This document shows, piece by piece, positions 1 to 35,188 of a DNA stretch of 35,188 nucleotides; the first letter of the stretch is position 1; every line of letters begins with the position of its first letter. A program made the position numbers and the translations under genes. Source of the stretch: a virus; UHGV virus genome UHGV-0321997. One strand, given 5' to 3'. A model generated the notes under the pieces. It ran no database searches. It had not been told where the DNA came from and saw nothing but the letters and a program-made list of their open reading frames with translations.

Positions 1-240
1 GGTGGTCGCAACGAAAAAGCGGTCATGGCTATGCTTGATATGGACGCTTTGAAAGAATCGAAAAACCAGTCTGAGGACATTAAGAAAGCATTGGAAACCG
101 TAAAGGAATCTGATGCTTATTTATTTGGTTCTAATGAACCATTCATGAACGCAGTCGGAGCAACAGGAGGCAGTGCCGATGTTGGTGGAGATAATCTGTC
201 AGCAATCAGGGCGGCTATGGGACTTCCGGCAGAAAAATAA
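1..240 (+). CDS. Scaffold protein, C-terminal part (continues in frame from the ORF at the window end).
   Basis: Frame 1 is open from nt 1 to the stop at 240. It lies immediately upstream of the major capsid gene. It is Ala/Gly-rich and helical, like scaffold proteins. Confidence 0.5.
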   Translation, partial: GGRNEKAVMAMLDMDALKESKNQSEDIKKALETVKESDAYLFGSNEPFMNAVGATGGSADVGGDNLSAIRAAMGLPAEK

Positions 241-267
241 TTTTTAGAAAGAAAGAGGTAATAAGAT

Positions 268-1125
268 ATGACGAACACAATTACATTAAGAAAAGCATAT
301 TCCACTATGCTGGACGAGGTTTATAAACTGGCATCCCTTACAGCCGTATTAGACGGTCCAAACGAACTTGTAAAAGAGGGTGCAAACGCAAATGAAATTT
401 TGATTCCGAAAATGACGATGTCCGGTCTTGCAAATTACAATAAGCAGACAGGATATGTTGCAGGTGATGTTACACTTGAATACGAGACTAAGAAGTGTAC
501 TTATGATCGAGGCCGTATGTTCACCGTGGACGCTATGGACGATATCGAGTCTGCAGGTGTTGCCTTCGGACGTCTTTCCGGAGAATTTTTGAGAACACAG
601 GTTGTTCCGGAGCTTGACGCTTGGAGACTTGCATCTTATGCAGGATACGCACTATCTACTAATAAAGTGGCAGCAGCGATTGCAGATGCGAAAGCCGGAA
701 TTGCAGCAATTAGAAAAGGCAAGACTGCTATTAAAAATGCGGAGGCAAAGCCGGAAACCTGTTATCTGTATATCTCTGCCGCACTCAAAGGGGATATTGA
801 GGACCTTGATACAACGGCATCCAAGAAAGTTCTGGAAGGCTGGGCTGGAGTGATTGAAGTTCCTGAGGGAAGATTTTTCGACAAAGTCACGTTGACAGCA
901 TCTGGGGACGGCGGCTTTACAACAACAGGCGGTAAGAAGATTGATTTCTTGATTGTTGACAAGAATGCAGTAATCCAGAATCAGAAGCACGCTGTATCTA
1001 AGATCATCACACCGGATCAGAACCAGGATGCAGATGCTTGGAAGTTCGGATATCGTACCGTAGGTATCGCAGAGGCGAAAGACAACAAGAAAGTGGCTAT
1101 CTATGTACATACTGCAGTGGAGTAG
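268..1125 (+). CDS. Major capsid protein (HK97-fold, about 285 aa).
   Basis: RBS AAGAGG upstream. Position is after the scaffold and before the connector genes. Size and sequence character fit small Firmicutes siphovirus major capsid proteins. Confidence 0.75.
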   Translation: MTNTITLRKAYSTMLDEVYKLASLTAVLDGPNELVKEGANANEILIPKMTMSGLANYNKQTGYVAGDVTLEYETKKCTYDRGRMFTVDAMDDIESAGVAFGRLSGEFLRTQVVPELDAWRLASYAGYALSTNKVAAAIADAKAGIAAIRKGKTAIKNAEAKPETCYLYISAALKGDIEDLDTTASKKVLEGWAGVIEVPEGRFFDKVTLTASGDGGFTTTGGKKIDFLIVDKNAVIQNQKHAVSKIITPDQNQDADAWKFGYRTVGIAEAKDNKKVAIYVHTAVE

Positions 1126-1143
1126 AAATAGGAGTTGATGTAA

Positions 1144-1515
1144 ATGAACTTGTATGCGGATTATACATTTTACGTCTCTGAATATAGGGGAAATTTAACA
1201 GATGAAGAATTTGATAAATCTGTTATTCCAGCATCAGCTTATGTCCGAAGGATTACCTTCGGGCGCGCTGATGACAACATGGAAATGGAAGAGGTAAAAC
1301 TTGCTACTTGTGCCGTCTGCGAATTGTTGGCAAATGATGAAAAAGTCAGAAGCAAACACTTAGGACGTGCGGTCACATCCGAGAATACGGATGGATATTC
1401 TGTCAGCTTTGAAAGCGGAGGGAATGGAGAGACAGCGGATGATCTGTTGCATAAAAAGATGTATAATACGGCAGCACTCTTTCTTGACCCGACTGGTCTC
1501 TTATGTATGGGGTAG
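1144..1515 (+). CDS. Head-tail connector / adaptor protein (gp6/gp15-like).
   Basis: Synteny directly after the major capsid protein. Size is 123 aa. Confidence 0.45.
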   Translation: MNLYADYTFYVSEYRGNLTDEEFDKSVIPASAYVRRITFGRADDNMEMEEVKLATCAVCELLANDEKVRSKHLGRAVTSENTDGYSVSFESGGNGETADDLLHKKMYNTAALFLDPTGLLCMG

Positions 1516-1519
1516 AATC

Positions 1520-1855
1520 ATGATAACCAACACAGATGCAACACTGTACAGAAGAAAGTACAACTCTGAAACCAGACTGGATGAGTGGGAGCGAGCTTAC
1601 ATACCTGAGGTATGGTGGTATAAAAATGAAAAGTCGCAGATCACGACAGATGGGTTAAAGCAAGCAGACACCTACACGGTCAGAATCCCGGATACGAGCG
1701 TGGAAATTAAGAAAGACGATTACCTTGTAAAAGGCGATTGCAAGGTTGACATGCAGACAATTAAGGACTTGGACGGACTGGACAAGACTAGAATTACATC
1801 TGCAAACTACAATACTTTTGGCGGCAACCCGCATATTAAGGTGGTGGGAGTGTAG
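1520..1855 (+). CDS. Head closure / head-tail joining protein.
   Basis: Synteny. ATG at 1520 follows the upstream stop. Size is 111 aa. Confidence 0.4.
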   Translation: MITNTDATLYRRKYNSETRLDEWERAYIPEVWWYKNEKSQITTDGLKQADTYTVRIPDTSVEIKKDDYLVKGDCKVDMQTIKDLDGLDKTRITSANYNTFGGNPHIKVVGV

Positions 1856-2256
1856 TGGCAAAAGGAAAGAAGAAATTTAAGATCGAGACACCGAGAGGTA
1901 AGATATCAACTTACACGATTTCCAAGGGAGATTTGAAAGAAAGGACAATAGCGAGACTCGACTGGAATCCGAACTTTAAACCGAATATGGAATCTGGTTT
2001 CGCAAGCGCACAGGAGTTTGTTGACTCTGAATGCATCCGGCGCATGAACCCGGAGACTCCAAGACGGACAGGAGTACTTGTTAAGTCAGCAACTCTCGGC
2101 ACCGTGATTGGAAGTGGCGAGATCAACCAGATTGCACCTTATGCACGTAGGCAGTATTACGAGCATAAGGAAAAATCACGATGGTTTGAGCGAATGAAAA
2201 ACCGTCACAAAGACTCTATCCTGAAAGGAGCGGCGAAGTATGTCAAATCTCATTGA
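1855..2256 (+). CDS. Tail component / neck protein (HK97 gp10-like).
   Basis: GTG start overlapping the upstream stop (TAGTG). Synteny between head closure and major tail protein. Confidence 0.4.
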   Translation: MAKGKKKFKIETPRGKISTYTISKGDLKERTIARLDWNPNFKPNMESGFASAQEFVDSECIRRMNPETPRRTGVLVKSATLGTVIGSGEINQIAPYARRQYYEHKEKSRWFERMKNRHKDSILKGAAKYVKSH

Positions 2257-2659
2257 CAGCGTCAGATCATACATTCTCACATGTCCGTTTTTAAGTGATG
2301 GACGTGTGAACGTGGACTACATTGGAACGGATATGGGGTACTCTGTTGACCCTCTCCCTTGCGACCCGATCATGCAGAGATACATGGACGGTGGGGCAAA
2401 GAAGCAGTTCCAATTCGCATTTACAAGCCAAGAAGAATATGACCAAGACGCGCGAATTAACATTGAAAACAGTGGATTCTTCCAGAGCTTCGAAGAGTGG
2501 TTGGAACAGCAGAGTTTTAACGACAACCTCCCAAAACTAGGAGAAAAGAAAAACCCAATATCAATTGAAACTTTAAACAGTGGTTACTTGTACGATATCA
2601 ACGAGGAAAAAGCTAAGTATCGTATTGAGTGCCGCTTAATTTATGCACAGGAGGTATAA
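2240..2659 (+). CDS. Tail terminator / tail completion protein (hypothetical).
   Basis: Synteny immediately upstream of the major tail protein. Size is 139 aa. Confidence 0.35.
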   Translation: MSNLIDSVRSYILTCPFLSDGRVNVDYIGTDMGYSVDPLPCDPIMQRYMDGGAKKQFQFAFTSQEEYDQDARINIENSGFFQSFEEWLEQQSFNDNLPKLGEKKNPISIETLNSGYLYDINEEKAKYRIECRLIYAQEV

Positions 2660-2661
2660 AC

Positions 2662-3186
2662 ATGGCAGAAACAGCACCAAAATTAGTAGGCAGACATTTG
2701 CGTGTGGCATTCATGAACACGGATGCAACGGGCAGCTCTCCGAAATTTGAAAGAATGACCAATTTTACCGCAATGACAAACGGGAAAAACCCGAAAGAGT
2801 ATTCCAGACAGTACGTGGATGAAAGCACCGAGAGATCAGATGTAGTTGGATATGCTCCGGCTACAGAGTACTCTTTTGATATGTATGCAGGGAATCCTGT
2901 ACATGAGCGAATTGCAAAAATCCATGACGGTGAGAAAGTTGCGGATGATGCACATGTGGAAGTGGTCACGGTGGATTTTTACAAAAAGAACACGGAAGGT
3001 GACAAGTGTTACGCAACAAAGAGAACTTACGCAGTTATCCCGGATTCGGACGGAGATGGAACAGACGCATTGGTTTACAGCGGGTCCCTAAAAGCTGTGT
3101 CAGAAATCGAGGAAGGATATGTTGCAGAGACTGATATTACATCCAAGACAGTTACTTACGCCAAGGGAGATTACATGGGGGAGTAG
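2662..3186 (+). CDS. Major tail protein.
   Basis: Strong RBS AGGAGGT 8 nt upstream of the ATG at 2662. Size is 174 aa. It lies just before the chaperone pair and the tape measure gene. Confidence 0.7.
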   Translation: MAETAPKLVGRHLRVAFMNTDATGSSPKFERMTNFTAMTNGKNPKEYSRQYVDESTERSDVVGYAPATEYSFDMYAGNPVHERIAKIHDGEKVADDAHVEVVTVDFYKKNTEGDKCYATKRTYAVIPDSDGDGTDALVYSGSLKAVSEIEEGYVAETDITSKTVTYAKGDYMGE

Positions 3187-3241
3187 CTGCCGCCGATTTT
3201 AAGGCGGTAAAAAATACGAGAAAGAATAGGAGAGTGAGCCA

Positions 3242-3607
3242 ATGAGCCAGTGGAAATGGAACGATGTAGAACTTGAAATAGATATGGATGACGTAGAGTT
3301 TTTGGAAAGATACGAAAAAGTATTTGAAAGCATTGAGCCGAGAGAGAAGAACCTTGAAAAGGTTGGGAAGATATCGGAAATAACAAGGGAATATTGTTTG
3401 CTATTTTATGATATTTTTGACGGAATTTTTGGAGAAGGCACTTCTGAAAAACTTTTTGACGGGAAAATGAATTTGAGAGTTTGCGAAGAGTGCTATGATT
3501 CGTTCATTGCTGTATGTGAAAAAGAAATCAATGCCGTAAACAAGAGAAGAAATTCTGTTGTTAGCAAGTACACTCCGAATAGAGCGCAGAGACGAGCGAA
3601 GAAATAA
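3242..3607 (+). CDS. Tail assembly chaperone (gpG-like).
   Basis: Position between the major tail protein and the tape measure. RBS AGGAGAG. Acidic 121-aa protein. Confidence 0.55.
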   Translation: MSQWKWNDVELEIDMDDVEFLERYEKVFESIEPREKNLEKVGKISEITREYCLLFYDIFDGIFGEGTSEKLFDGKMNLRVCEECYDSFIAVCEKEINAVNKRRNSVVSKYTPNRAQRRAKK

Positions 3608-3608
3608 C

Positions 3609-4193
3609 ATGAATTTTTTTTATGAAGAGTTGCCAAACACAGTAAATGTGAAGGGTGAAAATATCAAGGTCATTACGGATTTCCGTGAATACATCAGGCT
3701 TTTGGACATGTTAAAAGACCAAGAGCTTGATGCTCTTCAAAAATTCGCGATCATACAGCAGTATTTTCTTGATGACGTAGTCGCAGATGAAGAAGCTATA
3801 AGCGCATTGTCCCACTTTATAACGATGGATACAAACTGTGCAAAGGTTGCGGAGACAGGTGATTGTGAAGAACCGCAAGAAAAGTTGCAAGAAAAGCCGA
3901 AGAAAAATTTATTCTCGTACTCCATTGATTATCCATATATATTATCCGGCTTTCTCAGAGATTATGGAATTGATTTAATCGACATTAAATATATGCATTG
4001 GTGGAAATTCCGGATGCTTTTTGATGGTTTGTCTGACGATACAGAGATTAAACAGCGAATAATGTACCGCAGTGTTGATTTATCGGAAATTAAAGACAAA
4101 GAAGAGAAAAAACGAATTAAAAAGATCCAGAAATCAATTCAATTGCCATCTGAGAGCCTGACGGATTATGATATCGGAAATGCTTTTATGTGA
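3609..4193 (+). CDS. Tail assembly chaperone, Gp15-like (second chaperone).
   Basis: Position immediately upstream of the tape measure gene. Own ATG at 3609, and its frame is open back to 3558, overlapping the end of the previous gene. Confidence 0.55.
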   Translation: MNFFYEELPNTVNVKGENIKVITDFREYIRLLDMLKDQELDALQKFAIIQQYFLDDVVADEEAISALSHFITMDTNCAKVAETGDCEEPQEKLQEKPKKNLFSYSIDYPYILSGFLRDYGIDLIDIKYMHWWKFRMLFDGLSDDTEIKQRIMYRSVDLSEIKDKEEKKRIKKIQKSIQLPSESLTDYDIGNAFM

Positions 4194-4201
4194 GGTGACA
4201 G

Positions 4202-4357
4202 ATGAGTTGTAAAATTAAAAAACCATCACTTGAGAGAAAGTGGTATAAGTGTCCTTTTTGCGGGTGCAAGCTATTGATTTATAACAACAATTCCGTTTGC
4301 ACCAATGCATTTATCAAGTGCCGGACGTGCAAAAAAGAAGTAGAGATTAAGATTTAA
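4202..4357 (+). CDS. Small zinc-ribbon protein (51 aa, CPFCGC...CRTC), cysteine-rich KTR-like.
   Basis: ATG at 4202 overlaps the upstream stop (TGAGGTGACAGATG, RBS GAGGTGA). Two CxxC pairs. Not in the ORF track because it is under 60 aa. Confidence 0.4.
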   Translation: MSCKIKKPSLERKWYKCPFCGCKLLIYNNNSVCTNAFIKCRTCKKEVEIKI

Positions 4358-4408
4358 GCACTTTAAATTGAGCCATTGAGCCTGTGCTATCCATAAAGGA
4401 GGGATAGT

Positions 4409-6739
4409 ATGGGTTATGATGGCTCATTAAAATTTAACACAGAAATAAACGAATCCGGATTCAATTCAGGAATTTCCAAACTTGGCAGTGTTGCAAGCGG
4501 AGGATTAAAAGTGATTGCCGGATCAGTAGCTGGCGTTGCTGCAGCATTTGGAGCGGTGTCAAAAATGTCTCTTGATTCCGTTGCGAGTCTTGAGCAGAAC
4601 ATAGGCGGTGTCGAGACGCTGTTTAAAGATAGTGCGCAGACAGTGATCGATAATGCGAACAACGCCTATAAGACAGCTGGTGTATCTGCAAATAAGTACA
4701 TGGAAACAGTGACAAGCTTCTCGGCATCTCTTTTACAGGGACTTGGAAATAATACCGCAGAGGCCGCCAGAATCGCAGATATGGCGATGGTGGATATGTC
4801 TGATAATGCCAATAAATTTGGTTCAAATATGACAGATATCCAAAACGCTTATCAGGGATTTGCGAAACAGAACTACACCATGCTTGACAACTTAAAACTC
4901 GGATACGGCGGGACGCAAGCTGAAATGATTCGCTTAATTAACGACAGCGGAATCCTTAATGAGAAAATAGAAAATCTTGATAATGTGTCGTTTGACCAAA
5001 TTATTCAGGCAATTCACAAAATTCAAGAAAACATGGGAATTGCAGGTACAACGAGCGCAGAAGCATTAACTACCATAGAGGGCTCTGTACAATCCGCAAA
5101 AGCAGCATTTGATAACTTTTTGAATGGTTCAAGTTCCCCACAGGAATTGGCAGATGCCGTAAAGGCCGCAGCTGAAAATATAACAAATAATTTGATGCAG
5201 ATCGTTCCAAGACTTGCAAAAGAACTCCCGGAAGTTGGAAACCTGTTGATGGACAGTCTTTCGCAGTCACTTAATTCCGGGAAACTTGGAGAAATGATGC
5301 AGATCGGCGGGCAAGTTATTTCCAATATAACGACTGGAATCATTCAGTCGTTGCCCGGAATTGTGACTGCATCAGCACAGATTATAAGTTCGTTTGCAGA
5401 AAATATCAGCACAAGTATACCGCAACTGTTGTCGTCTGGGATCCAGATCATACAGGCAATAATAAGCGGTATGATGCAGGTATTGCCGTCTGTCGGCTTG
5501 CTTATAACTCAGCTTATTACAACTCTATACGAGCAGATAACATCGCAGGGGCCAAGTCTGCTGCAGCAAGGCTATGAATTGTTAAGCAATCTGATTGACG
5601 GATTTGTAAAGGCAATTCCAGAAGCGTTGCCGAAAGTGCTTGATTTTATACAGGGCATCGGAGAAAAACTTGCAGAAGCTGCACCTGTAATGATTCAAAA
5701 AGGTTTTGAGTTGCTACAGAAATTGGTCGAGGGAATCGTAACCGCAATACCGATATTGATTGAGCGAGTCCCAGAGATTATTTCTACATTTGCAAACATT
5801 ATTAACGACAATTTTCCAACAATTCTTATGAAGGGCGCGGAATTACTTGGACAGTTGGCACTCGGACTTATCCAGGCAATACCAACTCTGATTGCAAACA
5901 TTCCGCAGATTATAGCAGCTATTGTTGACACACTGATGGCATTCCAGTGGCTGAACCTTGGTAAAACCATTATAACCGCACTGGGAAATGGAATTAAGTC
6001 TATGGTCGGATTCGTGAAGCAATGCGGGGAAAGTATATTGGAAGGAATTAAGACTTCTGTACAGAATTTACCAAATACATTGATGAACATAGGAAGAACT
6101 GCAATGTCGGGACTTGGAAATGTTATATCGTCAGCTGTAGGTTCTCTTAAAGGTGCAGCTTCAAACATTGTAAACGCCATTGTAAGCACGATCTCTTCTA
6201 TTCCGGGACAGATGGCTTCTATCGGAAGCAATATCGTCCAGGGATTATGGAATGGTATTTCGAACATGACAGGATGGATTATTGACAAAATTGGAGGTTT
6301 TGCAAGCAGTGTAGTTTCATCCATTAAGGATTTCTTTGGCATTCATTCCCCGTCCAGAGTTATGCGAGATCAGGTTGGTAAGTACCTTGCGATGGGAGTC
6401 GGTGCCGGATACGAAGAGTACATGCCGTACAAAGAGATGAAAAAAGTATCCGGTAAGGTGGTGTCTCAGTTGTCTGCATCTGTGAGCGGTATAACGTTAT
6501 CAGTGCCGGAAAGTGCTGGAAGTCAAACTTACCAGAAAAGCGTTGGAATCCGGAAGTCTGAAAATAACAACGAGCTACTCTACGCAGTAGATCGTCTATC
6601 CAGACTTGCCAACAGACCACTAGAGATTGTTAATAAAATTGACTCTGTAGAGACATCCAGAGTACTTGCAACACCAATGGAAAAACAAATAGAAAAGAAT
6701 TCAAGTTTTCGGAAGATGTTAGGAGGGGATAGAAATTGA
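4409..6739 (+). CDS. Tail tape measure protein.
   Basis: 776 aa, long Ala/Gly/Ile/Gln-rich helical repeats. RBS AAAGGAGGG. Canonical position after the chaperones. Confidence 0.9.
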   Translation: MGYDGSLKFNTEINESGFNSGISKLGSVASGGLKVIAGSVAGVAAAFGAVSKMSLDSVASLEQNIGGVETLFKDSAQTVIDNANNAYKTAGVSANKYMETVTSFSASLLQGLGNNTAEAARIADMAMVDMSDNANKFGSNMTDIQNAYQGFAKQNYTMLDNLKLGYGGTQAEMIRLINDSGILNEKIENLDNVSFDQIIQAIHKIQENMGIAGTTSAEALTTIEGSVQSAKAAFDNFLNGSSSPQELADAVKAAAENITNNLMQIVPRLAKELPEVGNLLMDSLSQSLNSGKLGEMMQIGGQVISNITTGIIQSLPGIVTASAQIISSFAENISTSIPQLLSSGIQIIQAIISGMMQVLPSVGLLITQLITTLYEQITSQGPSLLQQGYELLSNLIDGFVKAIPEALPKVLDFIQGIGEKLAEAAPVMIQKGFELLQKLVEGIVTAIPILIERVPEIISTFANIINDNFPTILMKGAELLGQLALGLIQAIPTLIANIPQIIAAIVDTLMAFQWLNLGKTIITALGNGIKSMVGFVKQCGESILEGIKTSVQNLPNTLMNIGRTAMSGLGNVISSAVGSLKGAASNIVNAIVSTISSIPGQMASIGSNIVQGLWNGISNMTGWIIDKIGGFASSVVSSIKDFFGIHSPSRVMRDQVGKYLAMGVGAGYEEYMPYKEMKKVSGKVVSQLSASVSGITLSVPESAGSQTYQKSVGIRKSENNNELLYAVDRLSRLANRPLEIVNKIDSVETSRVLATPMEKQIEKNSSFRKMLGGDRN

Positions 6740-26500: not shown

Positions 26501-26505
26501 GAAAT

Positions 26506-27795: not shown

Positions 27796-27838
27796 ACACC
27801 GCCGGACTTTCACCCTTTCTCGTCTGACGGTGTTTTTA
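27796..27838 (+). terminator. Rho-independent terminator.
   Basis: ACACCGCCGGAC ... GTCTGACGGTGT stem followed by TTTTT. Confidence 0.5.
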
Positions 27839-27840
27839 TG

Positions 27841-27911
27841 CGGAGTATAGCATCAATGGTAGATGCGCAGGGTCGCGCCCTGTGTCCTTGGTTCGATTCC
27901 AAGTGCTCCGC
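27841..27911 (+). tRNA. Aberrant tRNA-like element with a short anticodon arm (possible tRNA pseudogene or non-canonical tRNA).
   Basis: 7-bp acceptor stem, D-arm GCAT/ATGC and a canonical T-arm CTTGG-TTCGATT-CCAAG. The anticodon arm is only 15 nt (CAGGG-TCGCG-CCCTG), 2 nt short of canonical. Confidence 0.4.
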
Positions 27912-28104
27912 TTTGTGATGTGAGTATACAGGCTGCACAGCTGAGGTCTGTTCTGGGAGTGCACACCGGACTTACATTGCAATGGTACCAAAAAGCAGAT
28001 ATCCGCAGATCTGCAAAACAAACAAAAATAGATTCAGCAATCTATATTTAGTGTCAGTACCCGAGTGCGGATAGGGTAAAGGGTGTCAATAAAAGGCATC
28101 CTAC

Positions 28105-28177
28105 GGGTGTATAGCTCAATTGGTAGAGCGATTGGCTGTTAACCGATGTGTCGTAGGTTCGAGTCCTACTATACCCG
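28105..28177 (+). tRNA. tRNA-Asn (anticodon GTT).
   Basis: Full cloverleaf: acceptor GGGTGTA/TATACCC, D-arm GCTC-AATTGGTA-GAGC, anticodon arm ATTGG-CTGTTAA-CCGAT, T-arm GTAGG-TTCGAGT-CCTAC, discriminator G. No encoded CCA. Confidence 0.85.
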
Positions 28178-28337
28178 TTGTGGACTACTGCAAGGTTCCT
28201 CCTTTTTCTTATAAATTTTGATTGTGTATTTGGTTATTTTTGTTTTTGTTGGCGTTATTAATTCTTTCAGCAGTAGTCCTAAATTCTTAGCATCCAGAGA
28301 TGGGTGCTTTTATTATGTTACAAAGGTGGTGAGTCGG

Positions 28338-28805
28338 ATGGCAAAAGGTAAATATCAAGAGTGGCTAGAGCCGGAAGGCTTGCTGAAGATAGAGGGATGG
28401 GCGAGAGATGGTCTGACGGACGAGCAGATTGCAGATAATATCGGGATTTCCAGAAGCACATTAAATAGCTGGAAAGACAAGTATTCGGACATTTCGGACA
28501 CCCTAAAAAGAGGAAAAGAGGTCGTTGATCGTCAAGTCGAGAATGCTTTGCTAAAACGTGCGCTTGGATATGAGTACACGGAGACTACCAGAGAATACAT
28601 ACCGGAACTTGATGAAATGAAAACTACGAAAAAGGTCACAAAGCAAGTAGCGCCGGACACGACAGCACAGATATTCTGGCTCAAGAACCGCAAGCCAGAC
28701 AAATGGAGAGATAAGCAGGAATACGAGGATAGAACAGCAATTGATAAGCTGGATGAAATCTTGAAAGGATTGCATGACAATGCAGCTAAGCAAGAAACAG
28801 AATGA
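28338..28805 (+). CDS. Terminase small subunit.
   Basis: HTH LTDEQIADNIGISRSTLNSWK and ALLKRALGYEY. Located immediately upstream of TerL. RBS AAAGGTGGTGAG. Confidence 0.7.
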   Translation: MAKGKYQEWLEPEGLLKIEGWARDGLTDEQIADNIGISRSTLNSWKDKYSDISDTLKRGKEVVDRQVENALLKRALGYEYTETTREYIPELDEMKTTKKVTKQVAPDTTAQIFWLKNRKPDKWRDKQEYEDRTAIDKLDEILKGLHDNAAKQETE

Positions 28806-30108
28806 GTACATAATTAACGCTACGCACAGATGGAATATTAAATCCGGTGCGGTACGTTCCGGAAAGTCTTTTGTAGATACTGCTTATATTGTTCCGAAAA
28901 GAATCCGAGATAGAGCTGGACTCCCAGGATTAAATGTAATCATGGGAGTCTCTAAAGAATCTATCGAGAGAAACGTACTCCAACCGATGAGGGAAATCTA
29001 TACCAGTGATCTGATCGGGAACATTAACAATCGGAATGTTGCCAGAGTATGCGGCGAGGATGTCTATTGTCTCGGTGCAGAAAAGGTCAGTCAAGTCGCA
29101 AAGATACAGGGAGCGTCCATCAAGTATTGTTACGGGGATGAGATTGCAAAGTGGAACAAAGAAGTCTTCCAGATGTTAAAATCCCGTCTCGATAAGACAT
29201 ACTCCTGCTTTGATGGAGCTTGCAACCCAGAGCATCCAACGCATTGGCTCAAAGAGTTCATTGACAATGTAGAGTTGGACATCTATCTCCAAAAGTACAC
29301 CATATTCGATAATCCATTTCTGGATCCAGAATTTGTCAAGCAACTCTGCAAGGAATATGAGGGTACAATCTACTATGACCGTCTCATTCTTGGATTATGG
29401 AAAAGAGCTGACGGATCGATTTACAAGCGGTTTGCAGACAATCCAGAAGCGTTCCGGTGCGAAATCGTGGATAATATCTCGCAGGAATCAGAGTATAAGC
29501 AATTCCGAAAAGAGGATATCACATCAATCGAGATTGGATTGGACTTTGGTGGCAATCAATCCGGTCATTCATTCGTTGCCAGAGGGTATACGGATAATTA
29601 CAGAGATGTAATTGCGCTAAAATCACGTAGAATCACGGCGAAAGATGAAAAAGAAGACATCGACAGCAATAGGTTGAATGAGTTGTTTTGCGAATTTATC
29701 AGAGAAGTAATAGAACAATATTCGGTATGCGTGAAAAGCGGTGATTACGTGCAGTATTGTAACGTAGAGTCCGTATTCTGGGATAATGCAGAGACAGTGC
29801 TTGGTAATTCCATCCGAAACGCTGTGGAAAAGGAGTTTCCGTGGATCGCTGTCAAACCAGCAAAGAAAAGACCAATCAACGACAGGATCAGATGCACCGT
29901 CAAGCTCATGGGGGCTGGGCGGTTTTTTATTACAAAAGACTGCGAATCTCTGGAAACTGCTTTTTCGGATGCAGTTTGGGACAAAGAAGCTGTTGGGAAA
30001 GATGAGCGTCTGGATGACGGCAGTACTGACATTGACAGCTTGGATGCGTTTGAGTACACGATCGAACGCGACATGAAATACCTAATCGAAGAGGTGGAAG
30101 ATGTTTGA
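28774..30108 (+). CDS. Terminase large subunit (PBSX family).
   Basis: Walker A GAVRSGKS near the N-terminus. 444 aa. The nuclease domain has its acidic residues in the C-terminal half. Confidence 0.9.
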   Translation: MTMQLSKKQNEYIINATHRWNIKSGAVRSGKSFVDTAYIVPKRIRDRAGLPGLNVIMGVSKESIERNVLQPMREIYTSDLIGNINNRNVARVCGEDVYCLGAEKVSQVAKIQGASIKYCYGDEIAKWNKEVFQMLKSRLDKTYSCFDGACNPEHPTHWLKEFIDNVELDIYLQKYTIFDNPFLDPEFVKQLCKEYEGTIYYDRLILGLWKRADGSIYKRFADNPEAFRCEIVDNISQESEYKQFRKEDITSIEIGLDFGGNQSGHSFVARGYTDNYRDVIALKSRRITAKDEKEDIDSNRLNELFCEFIREVIEQYSVCVKSGDYVQYCNVESVFWDNAETVLGNSIRNAVEKEFPWIAVKPAKKRPINDRIRCTVKLMGAGRFFITKDCESLETAFSDAVWDKEAVGKDERLDDGSTDIDSLDAFEYTIERDMKYLIEEVEDV

Positions 30109-31651
30109 TGGAATTAAGAGATTATGGAAAGGAATCATGAGGATGTTTGGATATACGACATTAAAACAGATCATCGGCAAGGATATCGCACTATCCAACG
30201 ACATGATATATGCAATCAACAGATGGAGACAGATGTTAAATGGTGATGCAGAATGGATTTCAGATAGCATCGTTTCTCTTGGGATTGAAGATGGAATCTG
30301 CCGAGAGTTTGCAGACTGCGCGCTGGTTGAAATGGAAACCAGTGTGACAAATGAACGTCTGGACAAGATTTATCAGAAGAATATCGCAAGTCTGAATGAA
30401 AACCTGCAGGAAGGGCTTGCACTTGGGTCATTTGTTTTGAAACCACTGGGAGAAGCGGCTGCTGAATTCGTTTCCACTGACAAGATTATCCCGATTAGCT
30501 TCGGGGATGATGGAAAGCCGAATGATATTGCGTTTTTGACCGTAAAAAAGGTTGGGGACGCTGATTATTTCACAAAGCTTGAACGGCACTATTTCATTGA
30601 CGGGAATCTGACTATAGAAAACAAGTGTTTTCACTCCCAGACAGCGAATGATATCGGTCTTCCGTGCAGCTTAGAAGCAGTGGAAGAGTGGGAAAATATC
30701 CTACCTGGACCGATTACATACCCCGGCATGAATCGAATGGACTTTGGATATTACCGTAATCCAATCAAAAATAAAATAGATGGTTCCGCATGTGGTGTAT
30801 CAGTGTATGAGTCGGCTGCGGAGTTGATTCGAAAAGCGGACACGCAGGGCGCAAGGCTCGACTGGGAATACGAATCGGGAGAGCGTGCTATCCATGTGGA
30901 TAATAGAGCACTTAAACAAGACAAGGCAACCGGAAAACTTGGACTGCCAAAACTCAAAAACAAATTGTATCGAGGAATGAATCTGGATGCCGGGAAAGAC
31001 CAAGAACTATTAAAGGAATACTCCCCAGAAATGAGGGATGAAGCCTTTAAACGCGGATTGGAGGAATACAAGCGTGAGATTGAATTTTCCGTAGGACTTG
31101 CCTATGGTGACCTGTCAGATGCGCAGGAAGTAGCAAAGACAGCCACGGAAATTAAAGCATCAAAGAACAGGAAGTACAACCGAGTAACGGCAATCCAGAA
31201 TAACTTATACGATTGCTTAGAGGATTTCGTTGCCGGACTTGCATTTTACAACAGCATGCTTAATTCGGGATATGAGTTCTCGTGTAAATTCAACGATTCC
31301 ATTCTAACCGATGAGGAAACAGAACGCCAGCAGGACAGGCAAGATGTGAGTATGGGCGTGATGTCGCATCTGGAATACCGCATGAAATGGTACAACGAAG
31401 ATGAAACCACAGCGAAAAAGATGTTGCCGGAACAGAACCAAGTCATGGACGATCAGATGTTTTCAGACTTAGGGGGGGCACAAGTACAAAGTAAAACATT
31501 AAATGGTGCTCAAACACAGAGTCTTATTGCTATTATGTCTCAATACATAGCCGGAGAGCTGACAGAAGGACAGGCGGTTAATTTGATTGCAACAGCAATT
31601 GGAATCGAAAAAGACGAAGCAAGAAAAATCTTAGATGGAGAAGTGATCTAA
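30101..31651 (+). CDS. Portal protein (SPP1 gp6-like).
   Basis: 516 aa, directly after TerL with an overlap. Confidence 0.85.
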   Translation: MFDGIKRLWKGIMRMFGYTTLKQIIGKDIALSNDMIYAINRWRQMLNGDAEWISDSIVSLGIEDGICREFADCALVEMETSVTNERLDKIYQKNIASLNENLQEGLALGSFVLKPLGEAAAEFVSTDKIIPISFGDDGKPNDIAFLTVKKVGDADYFTKLERHYFIDGNLTIENKCFHSQTANDIGLPCSLEAVEEWENILPGPITYPGMNRMDFGYYRNPIKNKIDGSACGVSVYESAAELIRKADTQGARLDWEYESGERAIHVDNRALKQDKATGKLGLPKLKNKLYRGMNLDAGKDQELLKEYSPEMRDEAFKRGLEEYKREIEFSVGLAYGDLSDAQEVAKTATEIKASKNRKYNRVTAIQNNLYDCLEDFVAGLAFYNSMLNSGYEFSCKFNDSILTDEETERQQDRQDVSMGVMSHLEYRMKWYNEDETTAKKMLPEQNQVMDDQMFSDLGGAQVQSKTLNGAQTQSLIAIMSQYIAGELTEGQAVNLIATAIGIEKDEARKILDGEVI

Positions 31652-32842
31652 TTGAGAGAGGACTACAAGAAACAACTATCCGGACAGATTGAGAAGCATT
31701 TTCTGGATTTGGAGCAGATGATTTTGGAGGACATTGTTCGCAGAATCAAAAAAGCCGGAAAAATTACAAGCACGGCAGACTGGCAGATTAACCGGTTACA
31801 GATCATCGGGTACTCTTCTGAGGACATCGAAAAGTTGGTAAAAACCACGCTGAACCTGTCATATCCGGAAGTGTTTGAATTGTACGACAAGGTTATCGAC
31901 TGGGAATATGTCCGCAACAAAGATATCTACGAACAGGTCAATGCGGAATATATCCCCTACGAGGATAATAAGGAGTTGCAACAGCTTGCAGATGGCTTTA
32001 TCCAGCAGAGCAATGATGATCTGCGGAACGTCACAAAGTCCATGGGATTTTATGTGGATTACGGAGGCGGTAGGCTTGTTATGACTCCATTATCCGACAT
32101 CTACCAAGGATATCTTGATAAGGCTATCACAGGCGTTGTTTACGGAGCATTTGATTACAATACCATGATACGCAAGGTGGTTACTCAGCTCACAAATAGC
32201 GGACTCAGGAGCATCGATTATGCTTCTGGGTGGCATAGCAGGGTAGACGTGGCGGCAAGGAGAGCGGTTATGACGGGAGCATCACAGCTTACTGGGAAAA
32301 TCACGGAAATGAACGCCGAGAAGTTAGGAACAGAACATTTTGAGATTGCGTGGCACGCCGGAGCGAGACCATCACACGCCGTCTGGCAAGGCAAGGTGTG
32401 GAGCAAAAAAGAACTTGTTACAGTGTGCGGTCTTGGAACAGTTACCGGTCTACTTGGAGCAAACTGTTACCATGAATATTACCCTTTTGTAAAAGGTATC
32501 TCGGAGCGGAATTGGTCAGATTCTTGGCTTGCAGAGCAGAACCGAAAGGAAAGTATACCTAAGACATTTAACGGCAAGGAATACACCTTATACGAAGCCA
32601 AACAGCAACAGAGGAAAATGGAAACAGCAATGAGGGCACAGAGGGAAAAAGCTGTGCTGTTAAAACAGGGTGGAGCTGACCCAGATGATGTGATGCTTGC
32701 AAAAGCAAAGTATCAAGGACAACTCGGGGAGTACACCAGATTTTGCAAACGAATGGGGCTGCATCAAGAACGTGAGCGAATCTATTACGATATGCGCGGA
32801 AGAGTGGCACCCGTACCAAAAAGATTTAGGAGGCAGAAATGA
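31652..32842 (+). CDS. Minor head protein (phage Mu F-like / SPP1 gp7-like head morphogenesis protein).
   Basis: Position after the portal. Conserved WHAGARPSH...GANCYH region of the MuF domain. TTG start predicted. Confidence 0.7.
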   Translation: MREDYKKQLSGQIEKHFLDLEQMILEDIVRRIKKAGKITSTADWQINRLQIIGYSSEDIEKLVKTTLNLSYPEVFELYDKVIDWEYVRNKDIYEQVNAEYIPYEDNKELQQLADGFIQQSNDDLRNVTKSMGFYVDYGGGRLVMTPLSDIYQGYLDKAITGVVYGAFDYNTMIRKVVTQLTNSGLRSIDYASGWHSRVDVAARRAVMTGASQLTGKITEMNAEKLGTEHFEIAWHAGARPSHAVWQGKVWSKKELVTVCGLGTVTGLLGANCYHEYYPFVKGISERNWSDSWLAEQNRKESIPKTFNGKEYTLYEAKQQQRKMETAMRAQREKAVLLKQGGADPDDVMLAKAKYQGQLGEYTRFCKRMGLHQERERIYYDMRGRVAPVPKRFRRQK

Positions 32843-33120
32843 GCGAAGTAAAAGTAATTAGACAACCGACAGCGGAAGCAACATTGATTTTTGAATTTGA
32901 GATAGCATCATCAGAATTTCTGATCAAGAATTTCACGGACGGTGATATCTACGCATCTCTGGAAAGGGACGCGACAAAAGAACAAAGTGTACTGATTCCG
33001 GCGCAGACTGCACAGCGATTGCAGTACGGTTCTTACGGCGGTGGAAAGAGTAACCTAGTCCAAATTATCCCCACAGCAACCAGTGAAAAAGGAGTGGAAG
33101 TACAATGCTTAAAATGGTAG
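32839..33120 (+). CDS. Hypothetical protein (93 aa).
   Basis: ATGA overlap with the upstream gene. Confidence 0.4.
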   Translation: MSEVKVIRQPTAEATLIFEFEIASSEFLIKNFTDGDIYASLERDATKEQSVLIPAQTAQRLQYGSYGGGKSNLVQIIPTATSEKGVEVQCLKW

Positions 33121-34235
33121 ATGGATCAGGAATCATCGGAGTGGATATGGTATGCCCTCTTGGAGTCTCTGCTCCACAGCCACCGAACTACGATAAAGTA
33201 GAGGTAGAGGGTACAGGGATTCTGGTACTTCCGAACAGCTTGGATGCGCCGCTTGAGAGGTTGGAGCTGATTGGAAATAGTACGCAGGGCGAGAATCCAG
33301 CGCCGGATAATCCGCAAGAGATTAAATCGGCAGGAAGGTTCGATGAAGCGAGCGGGAAATACTTGCTTGATGTGAAAATTACTGGGAAGAACCTACTGAA
33401 TTTGCAAAAAGAGCCGGATGTAAAAGGCCTTTACCAAGGATGGAAGGTTGGAAATGGTGACAAAGGCACATTGAGTATTAAGGACAAGGGTAACAACGCG
33501 GACATTTCAGAATGTTATTTTGGTTTAAACAGTGATGGCACGACTTCCAATTCGGTTACATGGCTTGTAGATAATGGAGTGATCAAAAGATACCATATTG
33601 AAAGCATTGAAAAAATGTACGCTTACATGTATCCACCGAATGAAAAAATTATCAAAAAAATTACAGAGCGATTTGAAATCCAGTATGAATATGGAAGTAT
33701 AGCTACAGAATATCAACCCTACAAAGAGCAAACCCTCACCATCACATCCGACCGCCCAATAACCAAGTGGGATAAACTCGTGGAACAGGGCGGACAGATT
33801 GGGTGGTTGTATGGGAGCGTGATAGCAACAATTGATGAAACCGCTGACATTTCTTTGTATGCGCCCAACGGATTCTTTATTCACGTCAAAAATATTGACA
33901 AGAAAGAAAAAAGTGGATATTGCGACAAGTTGTATACAAAGAAAATGTCGAACGGGGAACCATTTGTCTTATTCGGGATTGCCAATAATAATTTTCTTTA
34001 TACGCTTAACACTCAAGAGTTTTACGGGAAAACAGCTTCTGAAATTAAAGCAAAATTGAAAGAATACCCACTCAATATTATCGGAAAATCAGAAACCACC
34101 GAATTCGTCCCCCTTCCACAATCCGAGCAAAACGCTATCCGATCATTAAAAACCTACTACCCTACCACAGTAATCACAGTGGACGGAGGGGAGCTTGACC
34201 CAGATATTAAAGTAACATACCGAAAGGAGATATGA
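33105..34235 (+). CDS. Hypothetical head-module protein (376 aa), possible minor structural or decoration protein.
   Basis: Large ORF between the MuF-like gene and the scaffold. No recognisable motif. Confidence 0.45.
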   Translation: MLKMVDGSGIIGVDMVCPLGVSAPQPPNYDKVEVEGTGILVLPNSLDAPLERLELIGNSTQGENPAPDNPQEIKSAGRFDEASGKYLLDVKITGKNLLNLQKEPDVKGLYQGWKVGNGDKGTLSIKDKGNNADISECYFGLNSDGTTSNSVTWLVDNGVIKRYHIESIEKMYAYMYPPNEKIIKKITERFEIQYEYGSIATEYQPYKEQTLTITSDRPITKWDKLVEQGGQIGWLYGSVIATIDETADISLYAPNGFFIHVKNIDKKEKSGYCDKLYTKKMSNGEPFVLFGIANNNFLYTLNTQEFYGKTASEIKAKLKEYPLNIIGKSETTEFVPLPQSEQNAIRSLKTYYPTTVITVDGGELDPDIKVTYRKEI

Positions 34236-34236
34236 T

Positions 34237-34524
34237 ATGAACTACGCAAAAATCATGGAAAACGGAACTGTAAGAATCAGCTCCATCAAAAAAGAGGGCT
34301 ACAAACCACTCAAGGAAGAGAAACCAGAGGGATTTAGCAACCTTGTCTTTGTCGGCTATACAGAGACAGAAGAAAATGTAATCAAAGAATACGAAGCAGT
34401 GGATGGCGGAATGAGCGCCTATGGAAAGCTCCAGAACGACCTGAAAGCAACACAGGCGGCACAGGAAGTCACAGATCAGGCAGTGCAAGAACTGATTCTC
34501 GCAACGATGAAAATGGGGGTGTAA
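34237..34524 (+). CDS. Hypothetical protein (95 aa).
   Basis: ATG 2 nt after the upstream stop. Confidence 0.4.
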   Translation: MNYAKIMENGTVRISSIKKEGYKPLKEEKPEGFSNLVFVGYTETEENVIKEYEAVDGGMSAYGKLQNDLKATQAAQEVTDQAVQELILATMKMGV

Positions 34525-34527
34525 GTT

Positions 34528-34623
34528 ATGGCGCAGTTTTTGGCAATTAGAATCAAAGGTGGACACTTGACAATTGATGATGTACCGGAGAGTTTGAAAG
34601 AGCAGGTGCAGGCGTTACTTTAG
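34528..34623 (+). CDS. XkdX-like tiny protein (31 aa).
   Basis: MAQFLAIRIKGGHLTIDDVPESLKEQVQALL resembles the XkdX family (...ITxxxVxxxV). Confidence 0.25.
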   Translation: MAQFLAIRIKGGHLTIDDVPESLKEQVQALL

Positions 34624-34631
34624 GAGTAGAT

Positions 34632-34745
34632 ATGTTTATCAGATGGTTAAAGCAGAAATTCTGCGAACACAAGTATTGCAAGCACTACAACAAGGCTACA
34701 AAGGGATATGTTAGGCGTTGTGTAAAGTGCGGGAAAATTGAATAG
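34632..34745 (+). CDS. Tiny zinc-ribbon protein (37 aa, C..H..C...C..C).
   Basis: RBS GGAG 5 nt before the ATG. Motifs CEHKYCKH and CVKCG. Confidence 0.25.
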   Translation: MFIRWLKQKFCEHKYCKHYNKATKGYVRRCVKCGKIE

Positions 34746-34876
34746 GTAAGACATTGGCACATAGAGATATGTGTTATTTTTATGCCTTTTTGGTCAGTAG
34801 ATGAGACCTTAAACAGTCAATTCGTGGCGGTTGGTAACACGCCTAAAACTACCTAATGCGAAAGGAGATCAGAAAC

Positions 34877-35188
34877 ATGAAAACAGAATTTTTAAAAGGA
34901 CTCGGATTGGAACAGGATGTTATTGATAAGATCATGGCAGAGAACGGGAAAGACATTGCCGCTGAAAAGGCAAAGACCACAAAAGCAGAGGGTGAGCGTG
35001 ACAATTACAAGAGTCAGCTTGAGACTGCAACAGAATCTTTGGAAAAATTTAAAGATGTTGACCCAACAGCTATGCAGGGCGAGATCAACAAACTGAATCA
35101 ACAGCTGAAAGACAAAGATGCCGAGTATGCCGCAAAAGAAGCGGATCGCATCTTTTCCGACACGATCAAAGAAGCGATCAAGACAGCC
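34877..35188 (+). CDS. Scaffold protein, N-terminal part (open to the window end, continues in frame at nt 1).
   Basis: RBS AAAGGAGATCAGAAAC before the ATG. Helical, charged sequence with no stop up to 35188. Confidence 0.6.
   Translation, partial: MKTEFLKGLGLEQDVIDKIMAENGKDIAAEKAKTTKAEGERDNYKSQLETATESLEKFKDVDPTAMQGEINKLNQQLKDKDAEYAAKEADRIFSDTIKEAIKTA

What the first reader, a model, noticed from the sequence alone, without database searches (positions are those of the whole stretch)
1..35188. Window is a complete circular phage genome: the scaffold gene is split across the window ends and joins in frame
The ORF starting at 34877 (MKTEFLKGLGLEQD...AIKTA) is still open at nt 35188 after exactly 104 codons. 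Frame 1 from nt 1 (GGRNEKAVMAML...GLPAEK*) is open back to the first base. Concatenating end to start gives one uninterrupted 184-aa scaffold-like protein directly upstream of the major capsid gene. All modules of a temperate siphovirus are present once, in canonical circular order, and no host gene is visible. The sequence therefore looks like a circular phage contig, or one unit of a circularly permuted headful (PBSX-type TerL) genome, rather than a prophage embedded in chromosomal DNA.
Basis: seen in the sequence. Interest (0 to 1): 0.6.

Follow-up and report, generated by a model that had tools for sequence, protein, structure and literature searches.

The report
Complete circular gut phage genome
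The window is a whole genome of a temperate tailed phage of the gut bacterium Ruminococcus (Mediterraneibacter) gnavus or a close relative, written out from a circular assembly that was cut inside the head-scaffold gene; this is correct but ordinary.

Summary
The ORF at 34877..35188 (104 codons, still open) and frame 1 of 1..240 join in phase. They give one 183-aa protein (184 codons with the stop, so not 184 aa). It matches Pfam Phage_scaffold as a single stretch across the join.

The join is real:
- A public contig, ENA ERZ27281223 k141_5469, is 100% identical over 20.9 kb across it.
- R. gnavus phage RG-TP1 is contiguous there.
- All 80 IMG/VR relatives fetched cross it in one alignment, with no gap.

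That contig is 35,328 nt, which is 35,188 + 140 (k−1 for k=141). It is broken at a different place, so each of the two linear forms covers the other's ends.

The window also carries an intact attP at 12719..12734, next to a large serine integrase. Other metagenome contigs show the same phage integrated there, with host genes beyond. So the window is the non-integrated form, not a prophage in a chromosome.

All modules are present once and I found no host DNA. Headful packaging is plausible but only inferred, and "PBSX-type TerL" falls below that family's cut-off.

Verdict: the reading is supported. The phage is a new member of a known kind (R. gnavus cluster D, RG-TP1-like phages). Interest is low.

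The parts
34877..35188 (+). 5' part of the head-scaffold gene (codons 1-104), cut by the window end
   Evidence: In contig k141_5469 this is a complete 183-aa gene with PF06810.
1..240 (+). 3' part of the head-scaffold gene (codons 105-183 plus TAA)
   Evidence: Contiguous with 35188 in RG-TP1, in L011 and in 80 IMG/VR loci.
34792..34855 (+). GP20-b RNA motif (Rfam RF03003) in the 5' leader of the scaffold gene, 22 nt before the ATG
   Evidence: 43.9 bits against a gathering score of 36.2. Found at the same position in 13 of 19 relatives scanned.
268..1125 (+). major head protein
   Evidence: PHROG 422, E 1.9e-64.
3242..4193 (+). tail assembly chaperone pair (DUF6673 and Phage_Gp15)
   Evidence: Precomputed Pfam on the identical contig. 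Sequence around the stop at 3605..3607 read.
4409..6739 (+). tail tape measure protein
   Evidence: PHROG 58, E 3e-87.
6736..8208 (+). distal tail protein (Sipho_tail)
   Evidence: PF05709 on the identical contig.
8208..11051 (+). tail tip / host-specificity protein
   Evidence: PF06605 and PHROG 588, E 2e-157.
11419..11667 (+). holin
   Evidence: PF04531 on identical sequence.
11818..12624 (+). endolysin (Amidase_3)
   Evidence: PF01520.
12719..12734 (.). attP core: perfect 7-nt inverted arms AAAAGGT / ACCTTTT around the central dinucleotide TG (12726..12727). Identity with attB is TGAC (12726..12729).
   Evidence: Integrated contigs L002, L006, L007 and L009 stop matching the window at 12723. 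L013 stops matching at 12729 from the other side. Empty attB found in L015.
12779..14254 (-). large serine integrase
   Evidence: Resolvase + Recombinase + Zn_ribbon_recom, PHROG 95.
14436..14999 (-). DUF5067 protein with a signal/lipoprotein-like N-terminus (moron candidate)
   Evidence: PF16729, E 4e-28. Sequence.
15596..15979 (-). CI-like HTH repressor, next to divergent promoter-like sites at 16003..16093
   Evidence: HTH_19. Promoter scan.
16932..17645 (+). antirepressor (Phage_pRha + ANT)
   Evidence: Precomputed Pfam on the identical contig.
19523..24136 (+). replication/recombination module: AAA_24 (Sak4-like), ERCC4 nuclease, DnaB_C/AAA_25 primase-helicase
   Evidence: RG-TP1 annotation.
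27289..27696 (+). late transcriptional activator (RinA-like)
   Evidence: PHROG 36. Annotated RinA family in phiRg phages.
27840..28178 (+). two tRNA genes: Ala-CGC at 27840..27912 (ARAGORN only) and Asn-GTT at 28104..28178
28338..28805 (+). small terminase subunit
   Evidence: PHROG 309, E 3e-69. Weak GP3_package and HTH hits.
28780..30108 (+). large terminase subunit
   Evidence: Terminase_6N passes its cut-off. PBSX family is sub-threshold.
30101..31651 (+). portal protein
   Evidence: PHROG 533, E 2e-115. A118-type portal, sub-threshold.
31652..32842 (+). minor head protein (Phage_min_cap2)
   Evidence: E 4e-119.

Best explanation
The window is one complete genome (35,188 bp, 41.9% G+C) of a temperate siphovirus of Mediterraneibacter (Ruminococcus) gnavus or a close Lachnospiraceae relative. 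It is a linear print-out of an assembly path that closes on itself. The cut happened to fall between codons 104 and 105 of the head-scaffold gene, so the two halves of the gene sit at opposite ends and rejoin in frame.

The DNA that was assembled was not the integrated prophage. The phage attachment site attP lies between the endolysin and the serine-integrase gene, and it is intact and internal.

Inferred life cycle:
- The serine integrase recombines attP (AAAAGGT-TG-ACCTTTT) with an attB inside a host gene for a peptidoglycan-binding protein.
- On induction the prophage excises as a circle and replicates.
- Concatemers are probably packaged by a headful (pac) terminase into circularly permuted, terminally redundant virion DNA.
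- Either the excised circle or the permuted virion DNA would assemble as a circle.

Shown here: the in-frame join, the closure of the circle, the intact attP, the integrated forms in other samples, and the gene content. Inferred: the host species, the headful packaging and the physical form of the sampled DNA.
For: Join: 104 + 79 codons in phase. A single Pfam Phage_scaffold match runs across it. An identical 183-aa gene is called on ENA contig k141_5469. L011 from that contig is 100.000% identical over 20,858 nt covering window 25456..35188 + 1..11125. RG-TP1 is contiguous across the join. 80 of 80 IMG/VR relatives cross it ungapped. The GP20-b leader RNA typical of this gene family sits just upstream.

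Closure: k141_5469 is 35,328 nt. L005 and L011 map to the window with the single relation w = 48033 - r. This places the contig ends at window 12844 and 12705, a 140-nt terminal overlap equal to k-1 for k=141, and 35,328 - 140 = 35,188. The break of that contig is bridged by the window itself. It is also bridged by independent contigs from other samples: L003/L012 at 99.96% over 1818..14435, L008/L014 at 100% over 11688..14376, and L010 at 100% over 12655..14426.

Not integrated: in L002, L006, L007 and L009, identity to the window stops at 12723 and host genes follow (RseP, Dxr, CdsA, UppS, Frr, PyrH). In L013 it stops at 12729 from the endolysin side. An empty attB exists in a Lachnospiraceae MAG.

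Content: packaging, head, tail, lysis, lysogeny, replication and late-regulator genes each occur once, with no long repeats.

Relatives: the window is collinear with R. gnavus phage RG-TP1 (60% covered, identity-weighted 0.52). RG-TP1 belongs to 'cluster D', described as 35-37 kb, 42% G+C phages with serine integrases (PMC13435783).
Against: No reads are available, so circularity rests on assemblies. The first 1,719 nt of k141_5469 could not be fetched, so its 140-nt terminal overlap is deduced from coordinates and length rather than read directly. The window may simply be that contig trimmed and rotated. In that case k141_5469 is not independent evidence for the join, although RG-TP1 and the IMG/VR contigs still are. 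Exact 49-mer and 25-mer searches for the join found nothing in IMG/VR or in the GTDB species representatives. The headful inference is weak: the TerL is only distantly similar to that of pac-type Sfi11 and shows no detectable similarity to the A118 TerL.
Confidence: 0.9

Rival explanations
1. The sampled DNA is integrated after all, as a tandem (head-to-tail) double lysogen. The internal phage-phage junction of a tandem prophage recreates attP, and a de Bruijn graph would then close into a circle.
For: Integrated copies of the same integrase arm exist in several public samples (L002, L006, L007, L009, L013). A tandem array would give the same attP-spanning k-mers.
Against: attP-spanning contigs occur in at least five samples (k141_5469, scaffold_119, SRR7351870, SRR28764846, SRR27905144). 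The k141 contig carries no host arm at all. Spontaneous induction or free virions is the simpler source. Nothing in the data requires tandem copies.
Confidence: 0.04
2. The virion DNA has fixed ends (cohesive ends or a short exact terminal repeat). The circle is only the joined replicative or concatemer form, so the genome is 'complete' but not circularly permuted.
For: Sequence alone cannot show the termini. No PhageTerm or restriction data were found for RG-TP1 or the R. gnavus cluster D phages. The TerL falls below the PBSX-family cut-off.
Against: The head module is of the A118/Sfi11 kind: TerS, TerL, portal, SPP1-gp7-like minor head protein, a separate scaffold and the major head protein. 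No prohead protease gene was recognised. Sfi11 is the pac-type reference of S. thermophilus phages (PMC3952083). A118 is terminally redundant and circularly permuted (Loessner et al. 2000, from my own knowledge). The TerL passes T4-type Terminase_6N, and its weak relatives include Sfi11 TerL and pac-type S. thermophilus phages. The TerS has a weak P22 gp3-like hit.
Confidence: 0.3
3. The circle is an assembly artefact: a false closure or a chimera of related co-occurring phages joined through a shared 140-nt segment.
For: The R. gnavus phages are mosaic and share near-identical blocks. For example, scaffold_119 is 99.96% identical over 12.6 kb and then diverges. The break of k141_5469 lies in the conserved integrase/attP region.
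Against: Gene order is fully collinear with the isolate phage RG-TP1 around the whole circle. Nothing is duplicated or missing. Both breakpoints are bridged by independent contigs at 99.96-100% identity. The length is typical of the group, 35-37.5 kb.
Confidence: 0.03

Closest known systems
Ruminococcus phage RG-TP1 (PQ571303.1) and the 'cluster D' R. gnavus phages (RgGU series, PMC13435783)
   Same: Same gene order around the whole genome. Similar size (36,030 against 35,188 bp). Both have a serine integrase. The scaffold protein is 183 aa in both (91% identical) and the TerL is 97% identical. Both have the GP20-b leader and a tRNA upstream of terS.
   Different: Only 60% of the window aligns, with identity-weighted similarity of about 0.52. 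That is below the 95% species line. The lysogeny module, parts of the early region and part of the tail fibre are replaced. The RG-TP1 record is opened in the primase/helicase gene, not in the scaffold gene.
R. gnavus phages phiRg507T2, phiRg519T2, phiRgIBDN1, phiRM10 and phiRgPS_6 (Buttimer et al. 2023, PMC10072058)
   Same: They share tail fibre, lysis, antirepressor and late-regulator blocks at 85-95% nucleotide identity. Same host species and similar size.
   Different: They have tyrosine integrases and a 21-bp intergenic att site. Their packaging and head modules do not match the window at the DNA level.
Listeria phage A118 and Streptococcus phage Sfi11 (pac-type siphoviruses with a separate scaffold gene)
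   Same: Same head-module order: TerS, TerL, portal, minor head, scaffold, major head. The scaffold is 40% identical to A118 ORF5, and the portal and minor head are homologous to those of A118. The TerL N-terminus is similar to that of Sfi11.
   Different: These relatives are distant (22-40% identity). The A118 TerL is not detectably similar. The window has five extra genes, including a 376-aa protein of unknown function, between the minor head and scaffold genes.
Circular contigs from de Bruijn assemblers with a k or k-1 terminal overlap (the 'DTR / circular' class of CheckV-type completeness calls; own knowledge)
   Same: A gene split across the ends, an exact in-frame rejoin, and a sister contig longer by exactly k-1 = 140 nt.
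   Different: The window itself has had the overlap removed (no terminal repeat).
Serine-integrase phages and elements inserted inside host genes (B. subtilis SPbeta in spsM, the skin element in sigK, C. perfringens PhiS9 in sigK, PMC3442830)
   Same: A large serine recombinase. attP has inverted arms around a central dinucleotide. attB lies inside a host ORF that is split by integration.
   Different: The target here is an uncharacterised gene with a PG_binding_1 domain and a weak SpoIID-like region. No evidence was obtained that excision is developmentally regulated.

Membership tests
Pfam PF06810 Phage_scaffold (formerly Phage_GP20) | HMM score above the curated gathering threshold | tested here: met
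   137 bits against 35, E 8e-40, one stretch covering residues 1-149.
Pfam PF06810 Phage_scaffold (formerly Phage_GP20) | Gene lies immediately upstream of the major head gene in the head module | tested here: met
   Stop at 240, major head gene at 268..1125 (PHROG 422). Same order in A118, Sfi11 and RG-TP1.
Pfam PF06810 Phage_scaffold (formerly Phage_GP20) | Acts as a scaffold during procapsid assembly and is absent from mature heads | not testable with these tools
   Would need proteomics of procapsids and virions.
Complete, circularly closing phage genome | Ends abut with no base lost or gained | tested here: met
   100% identical contig across the join. Same 183-aa length as the homologues, with no gap in 81 aligned proteins.
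Complete, circularly closing phage genome | Independent linear forms with different breakpoints cover each other's ends | tested here: met
   k141_5469 is broken at window 12705..12844 and the window is broken at 35188/1. The 140-nt overlap itself is deduced, not read.
Complete, circularly closing phage genome | No host DNA, and attP intact | tested here: met
   attP at 12719..12734 is internal. Host arms are seen only in other contigs. No host-like genes were found in the family scans.
Complete, circularly closing phage genome | Reads or long molecules span every junction | not testable with these tools
   No read data are available.
Headful (pac) packaging with circular permutation | TerL groups with terminases of experimentally pac-type phages | tested here: inconclusive
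   Terminase_6N passes its cut-off. There are weak hits to Sfi11 and pac-type S. thermophilus TerL. The closest PDB entry is Thermus G20c TerL. No tree was built.
Headful (pac) packaging with circular permutation | Permuted, terminally redundant virion ends | not testable with these tools
   Needs PhageTerm analysis, Bal31 digestion or restriction mapping.
PBSX-family large terminase (NCBIfam TIGR01547 / Pfam Terminase_3) | Score above the curated cut-off | tested here: not met
   TIGR01547 scores 94.2 against 105.05 bits, although the alignment is full length (19-429). Terminase_3 scores 22.0 against 23.2 bits.
Large serine recombinase integration system | Resolvase + Recombinase + zinc-ribbon domains | tested here: met
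   All three domains are above their cut-offs.
Large serine recombinase integration system | attP with inverted arms around a central dinucleotide that is shared with attB, and only short overall identity | tested here: met
   AAAAGGT-TG-ACCTTTT in attP. attB reads ...CTGGA-TG-ACGCAG.... The shared block is TGAC.
Large serine recombinase integration system | attL and attR hybrid sites observed | tested here: met
   L002, L006, L007 and L009 show one side and L013 the other.
R. gnavus phage cluster D / RG-TP1 group | Shared gene order and proteome with RG-TP1 | tested here: met
   Collinear blocks around the whole circle. TerL 97% and scaffold 91% identical.
R. gnavus phage cluster D / RG-TP1 group | Same species as RG-TP1 (at least 95% nucleotide similarity over the full length) | tested here: not met
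   Identity-weighted similarity is about 0.52.
R. gnavus phage cluster D / RG-TP1 group | Host is M. gnavus | not tested
   The host flank in L002 was not assigned to a species. The only empty attB found is in a Lachnospiraceae MAG whose flank is 76% identical.

The most novel reading that the evidence does not exclude
Integration splits a host gene for a peptidoglycan-binding, weakly SpoIID-like protein, cutting off its C-terminal PG_binding_1 domain. Both the integrated and the excised forms are common in gut metagenomes. The phage could therefore act as a reversible genetic switch ('active lysogeny', as with SPbeta/spsM, skin/sigK or the A118-like phage in comK) that controls a cell-wall or sporulation function of M. 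gnavus. In that case the circular form would be a regulated episome rather than a by-product of induction.
Probability: 0.08. Interest if true: 0.5.

Novelty: new member of a known kind. Interest (0 to 1): 0.1.

Why it matters
The main value is for bookkeeping. The sequence can be treated as a complete, non-integrated phage genome. The scaffold gene should be annotated as one 183-aa gene across the origin, and the record is better opened at terS or attP. It adds one more genome to the RG-TP1-like (cluster D) temperate phages of R. gnavus, a gut species linked to inflammatory bowel disease. It also supplies an attP/attB pair for their serine integrase, which was not described in the papers I read. 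None of this would surprise a specialist.

Tried and rejected
- Exact search for a 49-nt join-spanning sequence in IMG/VR, and for a 25-nt one in the GTDB species representatives: no hits. The closest IMG/VR relative is 99.1% identical, not 100%.
I used the neighbouring capsid gene instead.
- I could not fetch nt 1-1719 of contig k141_5469. The look-up tool collapses it with the near-identical scaffold_119, whose proteins are all identical from 1818 to 14254. The 140-nt terminal overlap is therefore deduced, not read.
- 'PBSX-type TerL' is rejected as a family call because it is below both curated cut-offs.
- The A118 TerL shows no detectable similarity to the window's TerL.
- A PADLOC scan of ten accessory proteins gave only generic HTH hits and no defence system.
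- An Rfam scan of the gene-poor stretch 14900..16250 gave nothing credible. The stretch instead holds a small uncalled XRE-type HTH gene.
- The R. gnavus phage papers contain no data on termini or packaging.
- No large repeat, duplicated module or direct terminal repeat was found.

Full report
**1. The observation**

The last 312 nt of the window (34877..35188) are exactly 104 codons. They start at an ATG preceded by GGAG and contain no stop. The other two frames at that end are full of stops. Frame 1 from nt 1 is open from the first base to the TAA at 238..240, and again the other two frames are closed.

Joining end to start gives one ORF of 183 residues plus the stop codon. The window has no terminal direct repeat and no internal repeat longer than 37 nt.

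**2. Is the join real?**

Several independent results say yes.

- The fused protein matches Pfam PF06810 (Phage_scaffold) as a single stretch, residues 1-149, running straight through the join at 104/105 (137 bits against a cut-off of 35). It also matches PHROG 194, head scaffolding protein.
- The isolate phage RG-TP1 of Mediterraneibacter gnavus has a 183-aa homologue that is 91% identical. At the DNA level, window 34740..35188 aligns to RG-TP1 12377..12825, and window 1..3315 aligns to 12826..16129. The two ends are therefore adjacent bases in RG-TP1.
- Looking up the neighbouring capsid protein returned ENA contig ERZ27281223:k141_5469. On it a complete 183-aa PF06810 gene is called just upstream of the capsid gene. 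That stretch (L011) is 100.000% identical to the window over 20,858 nt, covering window 25456..35188 followed by 1..11125.
- In IMG/VR, 175 contigs encode a relative. All 80 that were fetched cross the join in a single BLAST alignment, at 70-99% nucleotide identity. They carry the peptide ...AIKTA|GGRNEK... with no gap.
- An Rfam GP20-b RNA motif lies at 34792..34855, 22 nt before the ATG. This motif is a candidate cis-regulatory leader named after this gene family. It sits at the same place in 13 of 19 relatives scanned. This marks 34877 as a genuine gene start.

**3. Does the genome close, and is it free or integrated?**

Contig k141_5469 is 35,328 nt long. Its two fetched parts, L005 and L011, map to the window at 100% identity with one linear relation (window = 48033 − record position, modulo 35,188). 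That relation puts the contig's first base at window 12844 and its last base at window 12705. This implies a 140-nt terminal overlap, which is k−1 for the k=141 named in the contig id, and 35,328 − 140 = 35,188, exactly the window length.

So the same circle has been written out with two different breakpoints, and each form covers the other's ends. I could not fetch the first 1,719 nt of that contig, so the overlap is deduced, not read. The window may also be this very contig, trimmed and rotated. Even so, the contig's own breakpoint is bridged by contigs from other samples:

- scaffold_119 of ERZ28630422, 99.96% identical over window 1818..14435;
- SRR7351870_19974, 100% over 11688..14376;
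- SRR28764846_184156, 100% over 12655..14426.

The integrase look-up also returned contigs in the integrated state. In L002 (a 65.6-kb contig), L006, L007 and L009, identity to the window runs through the integrase gene and stops at window 12723. Host genes then follow: a 306-aa ORF, RseP, Dxr, CdsA, UppS, Frr and PyrH. From the endolysin side, L013 matches up to 12729 and then continues with different DNA.

Reading the three sequences side by side gives the sites:

- attP: ...GAGAAAAGGT-TGAC-CTTTTTGTAAC...
- one hybrid site: ...CCAGACTGGA-TGAC-CTTTTTGTAAC...
- the other hybrid site: ...GAGAAAAGGT-TGAC-GCAGTGGGGG...

attP has perfect 7-nt inverted arms (AAAAGGT / ACCTTTT) around a central TG at 12726..12727. 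This is the usual anatomy of a serine-integrase site. The adjacent gene, 12779..14254 on the minus strand, has the Resolvase, Recombinase and Zn_ribbon_recom domains.

The reconstructed attB occurs uninterrupted in a Lachnospiraceae MAG. There it lies inside a 309-aa ORF with a C-terminal PG_binding_1 domain and a weak SpoIID-like region. Because attP is intact and internal in the window, the assembled DNA was the excised, replicating or virion form, not a prophage embedded in a chromosome.

**4. Content**

Every module is present once.

- Packaging: TerS, TerL and portal at 28338..31651.
- Head: minor head protein, the scaffold across the origin, and the major head protein.
- Head-tail connectors, tail chaperones, tape measure, Dit and tail tip protein at 1144..11051.
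- Lysis: holin and Amidase_3 endolysin.
- Lysogeny: serine integrase, a DUF5067 lipoprotein-like accessory gene, a small XRE-type HTH gene, a CI-like repressor with divergent promoter-like sites, and a pRha/ANT antirepressor.
- Replication and recombination: AAA_24, ERCC4 nuclease and a DnaB-type primase-helicase.
- A RinA-like late activator, and two tRNA genes before terS.

I recognised no host housekeeping gene and no known defence system. GC skew is uniform except where genes lie on the minus strand.

**5. Packaging**

NCBIfam TIGR01547 (PBSX family) aligns over the full length but scores 94.2 bits against a cut-off of 105.05. Pfam Terminase_3 scores 22.0 against 23.2. Pfam Terminase_6N passes, with 47.6 against 22.

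The head module has the A118/Sfi11 layout, with a separate scaffold and no recognisable prohead protease. The portal, minor head and scaffold proteins are homologous to those of A118, and the TerL N-terminus is similar to that of Sfi11. Sfi11 is the pac-type reference among S. thermophilus phages (PMC3952083). A118 DNA is terminally redundant and circularly permuted (Loessner et al. 2000, from my own knowledge).

Headful packaging is therefore the more likely mode, at roughly 0.6-0.7, but it is inferred. The R. gnavus phage papers give no data on termini.

**6. Comparison with what is known**

The nearest isolate is RG-TP1. It is collinear around the whole circle, with 60% of the window aligned and an identity-weighted similarity of about 0.52. 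A 2026 study places RG-TP1 in 'cluster D' of R. gnavus phages, which are 35-37.5 kb, 42% G+C and carry serine integrases (PMC13435783).

The Buttimer et al. phages share tail fibre, lysis and late-regulator blocks with the window. They have tyrosine integrases and different head genes.

The window is thus a new member of a known group. Finding a gene split across the ends of a circular contig is routine.

**7. Verdict**

Both the observation and the interpretation are correct, with small corrections to the protein length and the terminase family. The result is ordinary: a complete, non-integrated temperate phage genome opened at an arbitrary point.

The only mildly interesting by-products are the following:

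- the attP/attB pair inside a host peptidoglycan-binding gene, a possible 'active lysogeny' arrangement that remains untested;
- the conserved GP20-b leader;
- a 376-aa protein in the head module with no recognisable family.

Noticed in passing
window 34792..34855 (+): Rfam GP20-b RNA motif (RF03003, 43.9 bits against a gathering score of 36.2) sits 22 nt upstream of the scaffold ATG. It is conserved at the same place in 13 of 19 related loci. It is a candidate cis-regulatory leader whose function I did not establish.
   Followed up: partly
window 12719..12734; L002 5544..6464; L015 1349..2278: attP (AAAAGGT-TG-ACCTTTT) recombines with an attB inside a host ORF that has a PG_binding_1 domain and a weak SpoIID-like region. 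Integration truncates the ORF, and the phage supplies ...MTFL plus a stop. This separates the C-terminal third of the protein, about 125 aa. It is a possible reversible gene disruption.
   Followed up: partly
window 27840..27912 and 28104..28178 (+): Two tRNA genes lie in the 640-nt gap between the RinA-like gene and terS. tRNA-Asn(GTT) is found by both ARAGORN and Rfam. tRNA-Ala(CGC) is found by ARAGORN only. RG-TP1 and phiRM10 also carry a tRNA here.
   Followed up: partly
window 33105..34235 (+): A 376-aa ORF lies between the minor head protein and the scaffold gene. It has no Pfam, PHROG or PADLOC hit. RG-TP1 has a counterpart (gp21), annotated as hypothetical. Small ORFs of 93, 95, 31 and 37 aa surround it.
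   Followed up: partly
window 14436..14999 (-): A DUF5067 protein with a lipoprotein-like N-terminus (…LLVGAMALSITACGG…) lies between the integrase and the repressor. This is the usual position for a lysogenic-conversion or superinfection-exclusion gene. In scaffold_119 this slot holds a Bro-N protein instead.
   Followed up: partly
window 15094..15291 (+) and 15489..15587 (+): A 65-aa XRE-type HTH gene (PHROG 8/3) and a 32-aa ORF followed by a terminator-like hairpin lie in a stretch where no gene was called on the identical public contig. The stretch is 85% identical to RG-TP1, although the flanking genes differ.
   Followed up: partly
window 18614..18700 (+), inside ORF 18471..18929: Overlapping 33-nt copies at 18-nt spacing (CGGTAACGCTNNGGTATY) form a short tandem array. 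It encodes a GNAxV-type beta-solenoid-like repeat, with a weak YdcK repeat hit. PHROG 7964, function unknown.
   Followed up: no
window 3242..3607 and 3558..4193 (+): The tail chaperone pair (DUF6673, then Phage_Gp15) lies just upstream of the tape measure gene. The longest downstream ORF (TTG start at 3558) overlaps the upstream gene by 50 nt, so a programmed frameshift is possible. I did not identify a slippery site. The region around the stop reads ...GAAGAAATAACATGAATTTTTTTTATGA.
   Followed up: no
window 16003..16093: Back-to-back strong promoter-like sites lie between the CI-like repressor and the early operon: TTGACA-17-TATGAT on the plus strand and TTGACT-17-TG-TATACT on the minus strand. 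This is the likely lysis/lysogeny switch. No Cro-like gene is obvious; the first early ORF (140 aa) has no family.
   Followed up: no
L003/L012 (ERZ28630422 scaffold_119) against window 1818..14435: A 36,162-nt contig from another sample is 99.96% identical to the window through the whole tail, lysis and integrase region. It then switches abruptly to a different lysogeny module just past the integrase gene, from about window 14435. This is a clear example of module exchange in the phage group.
   Followed up: partly
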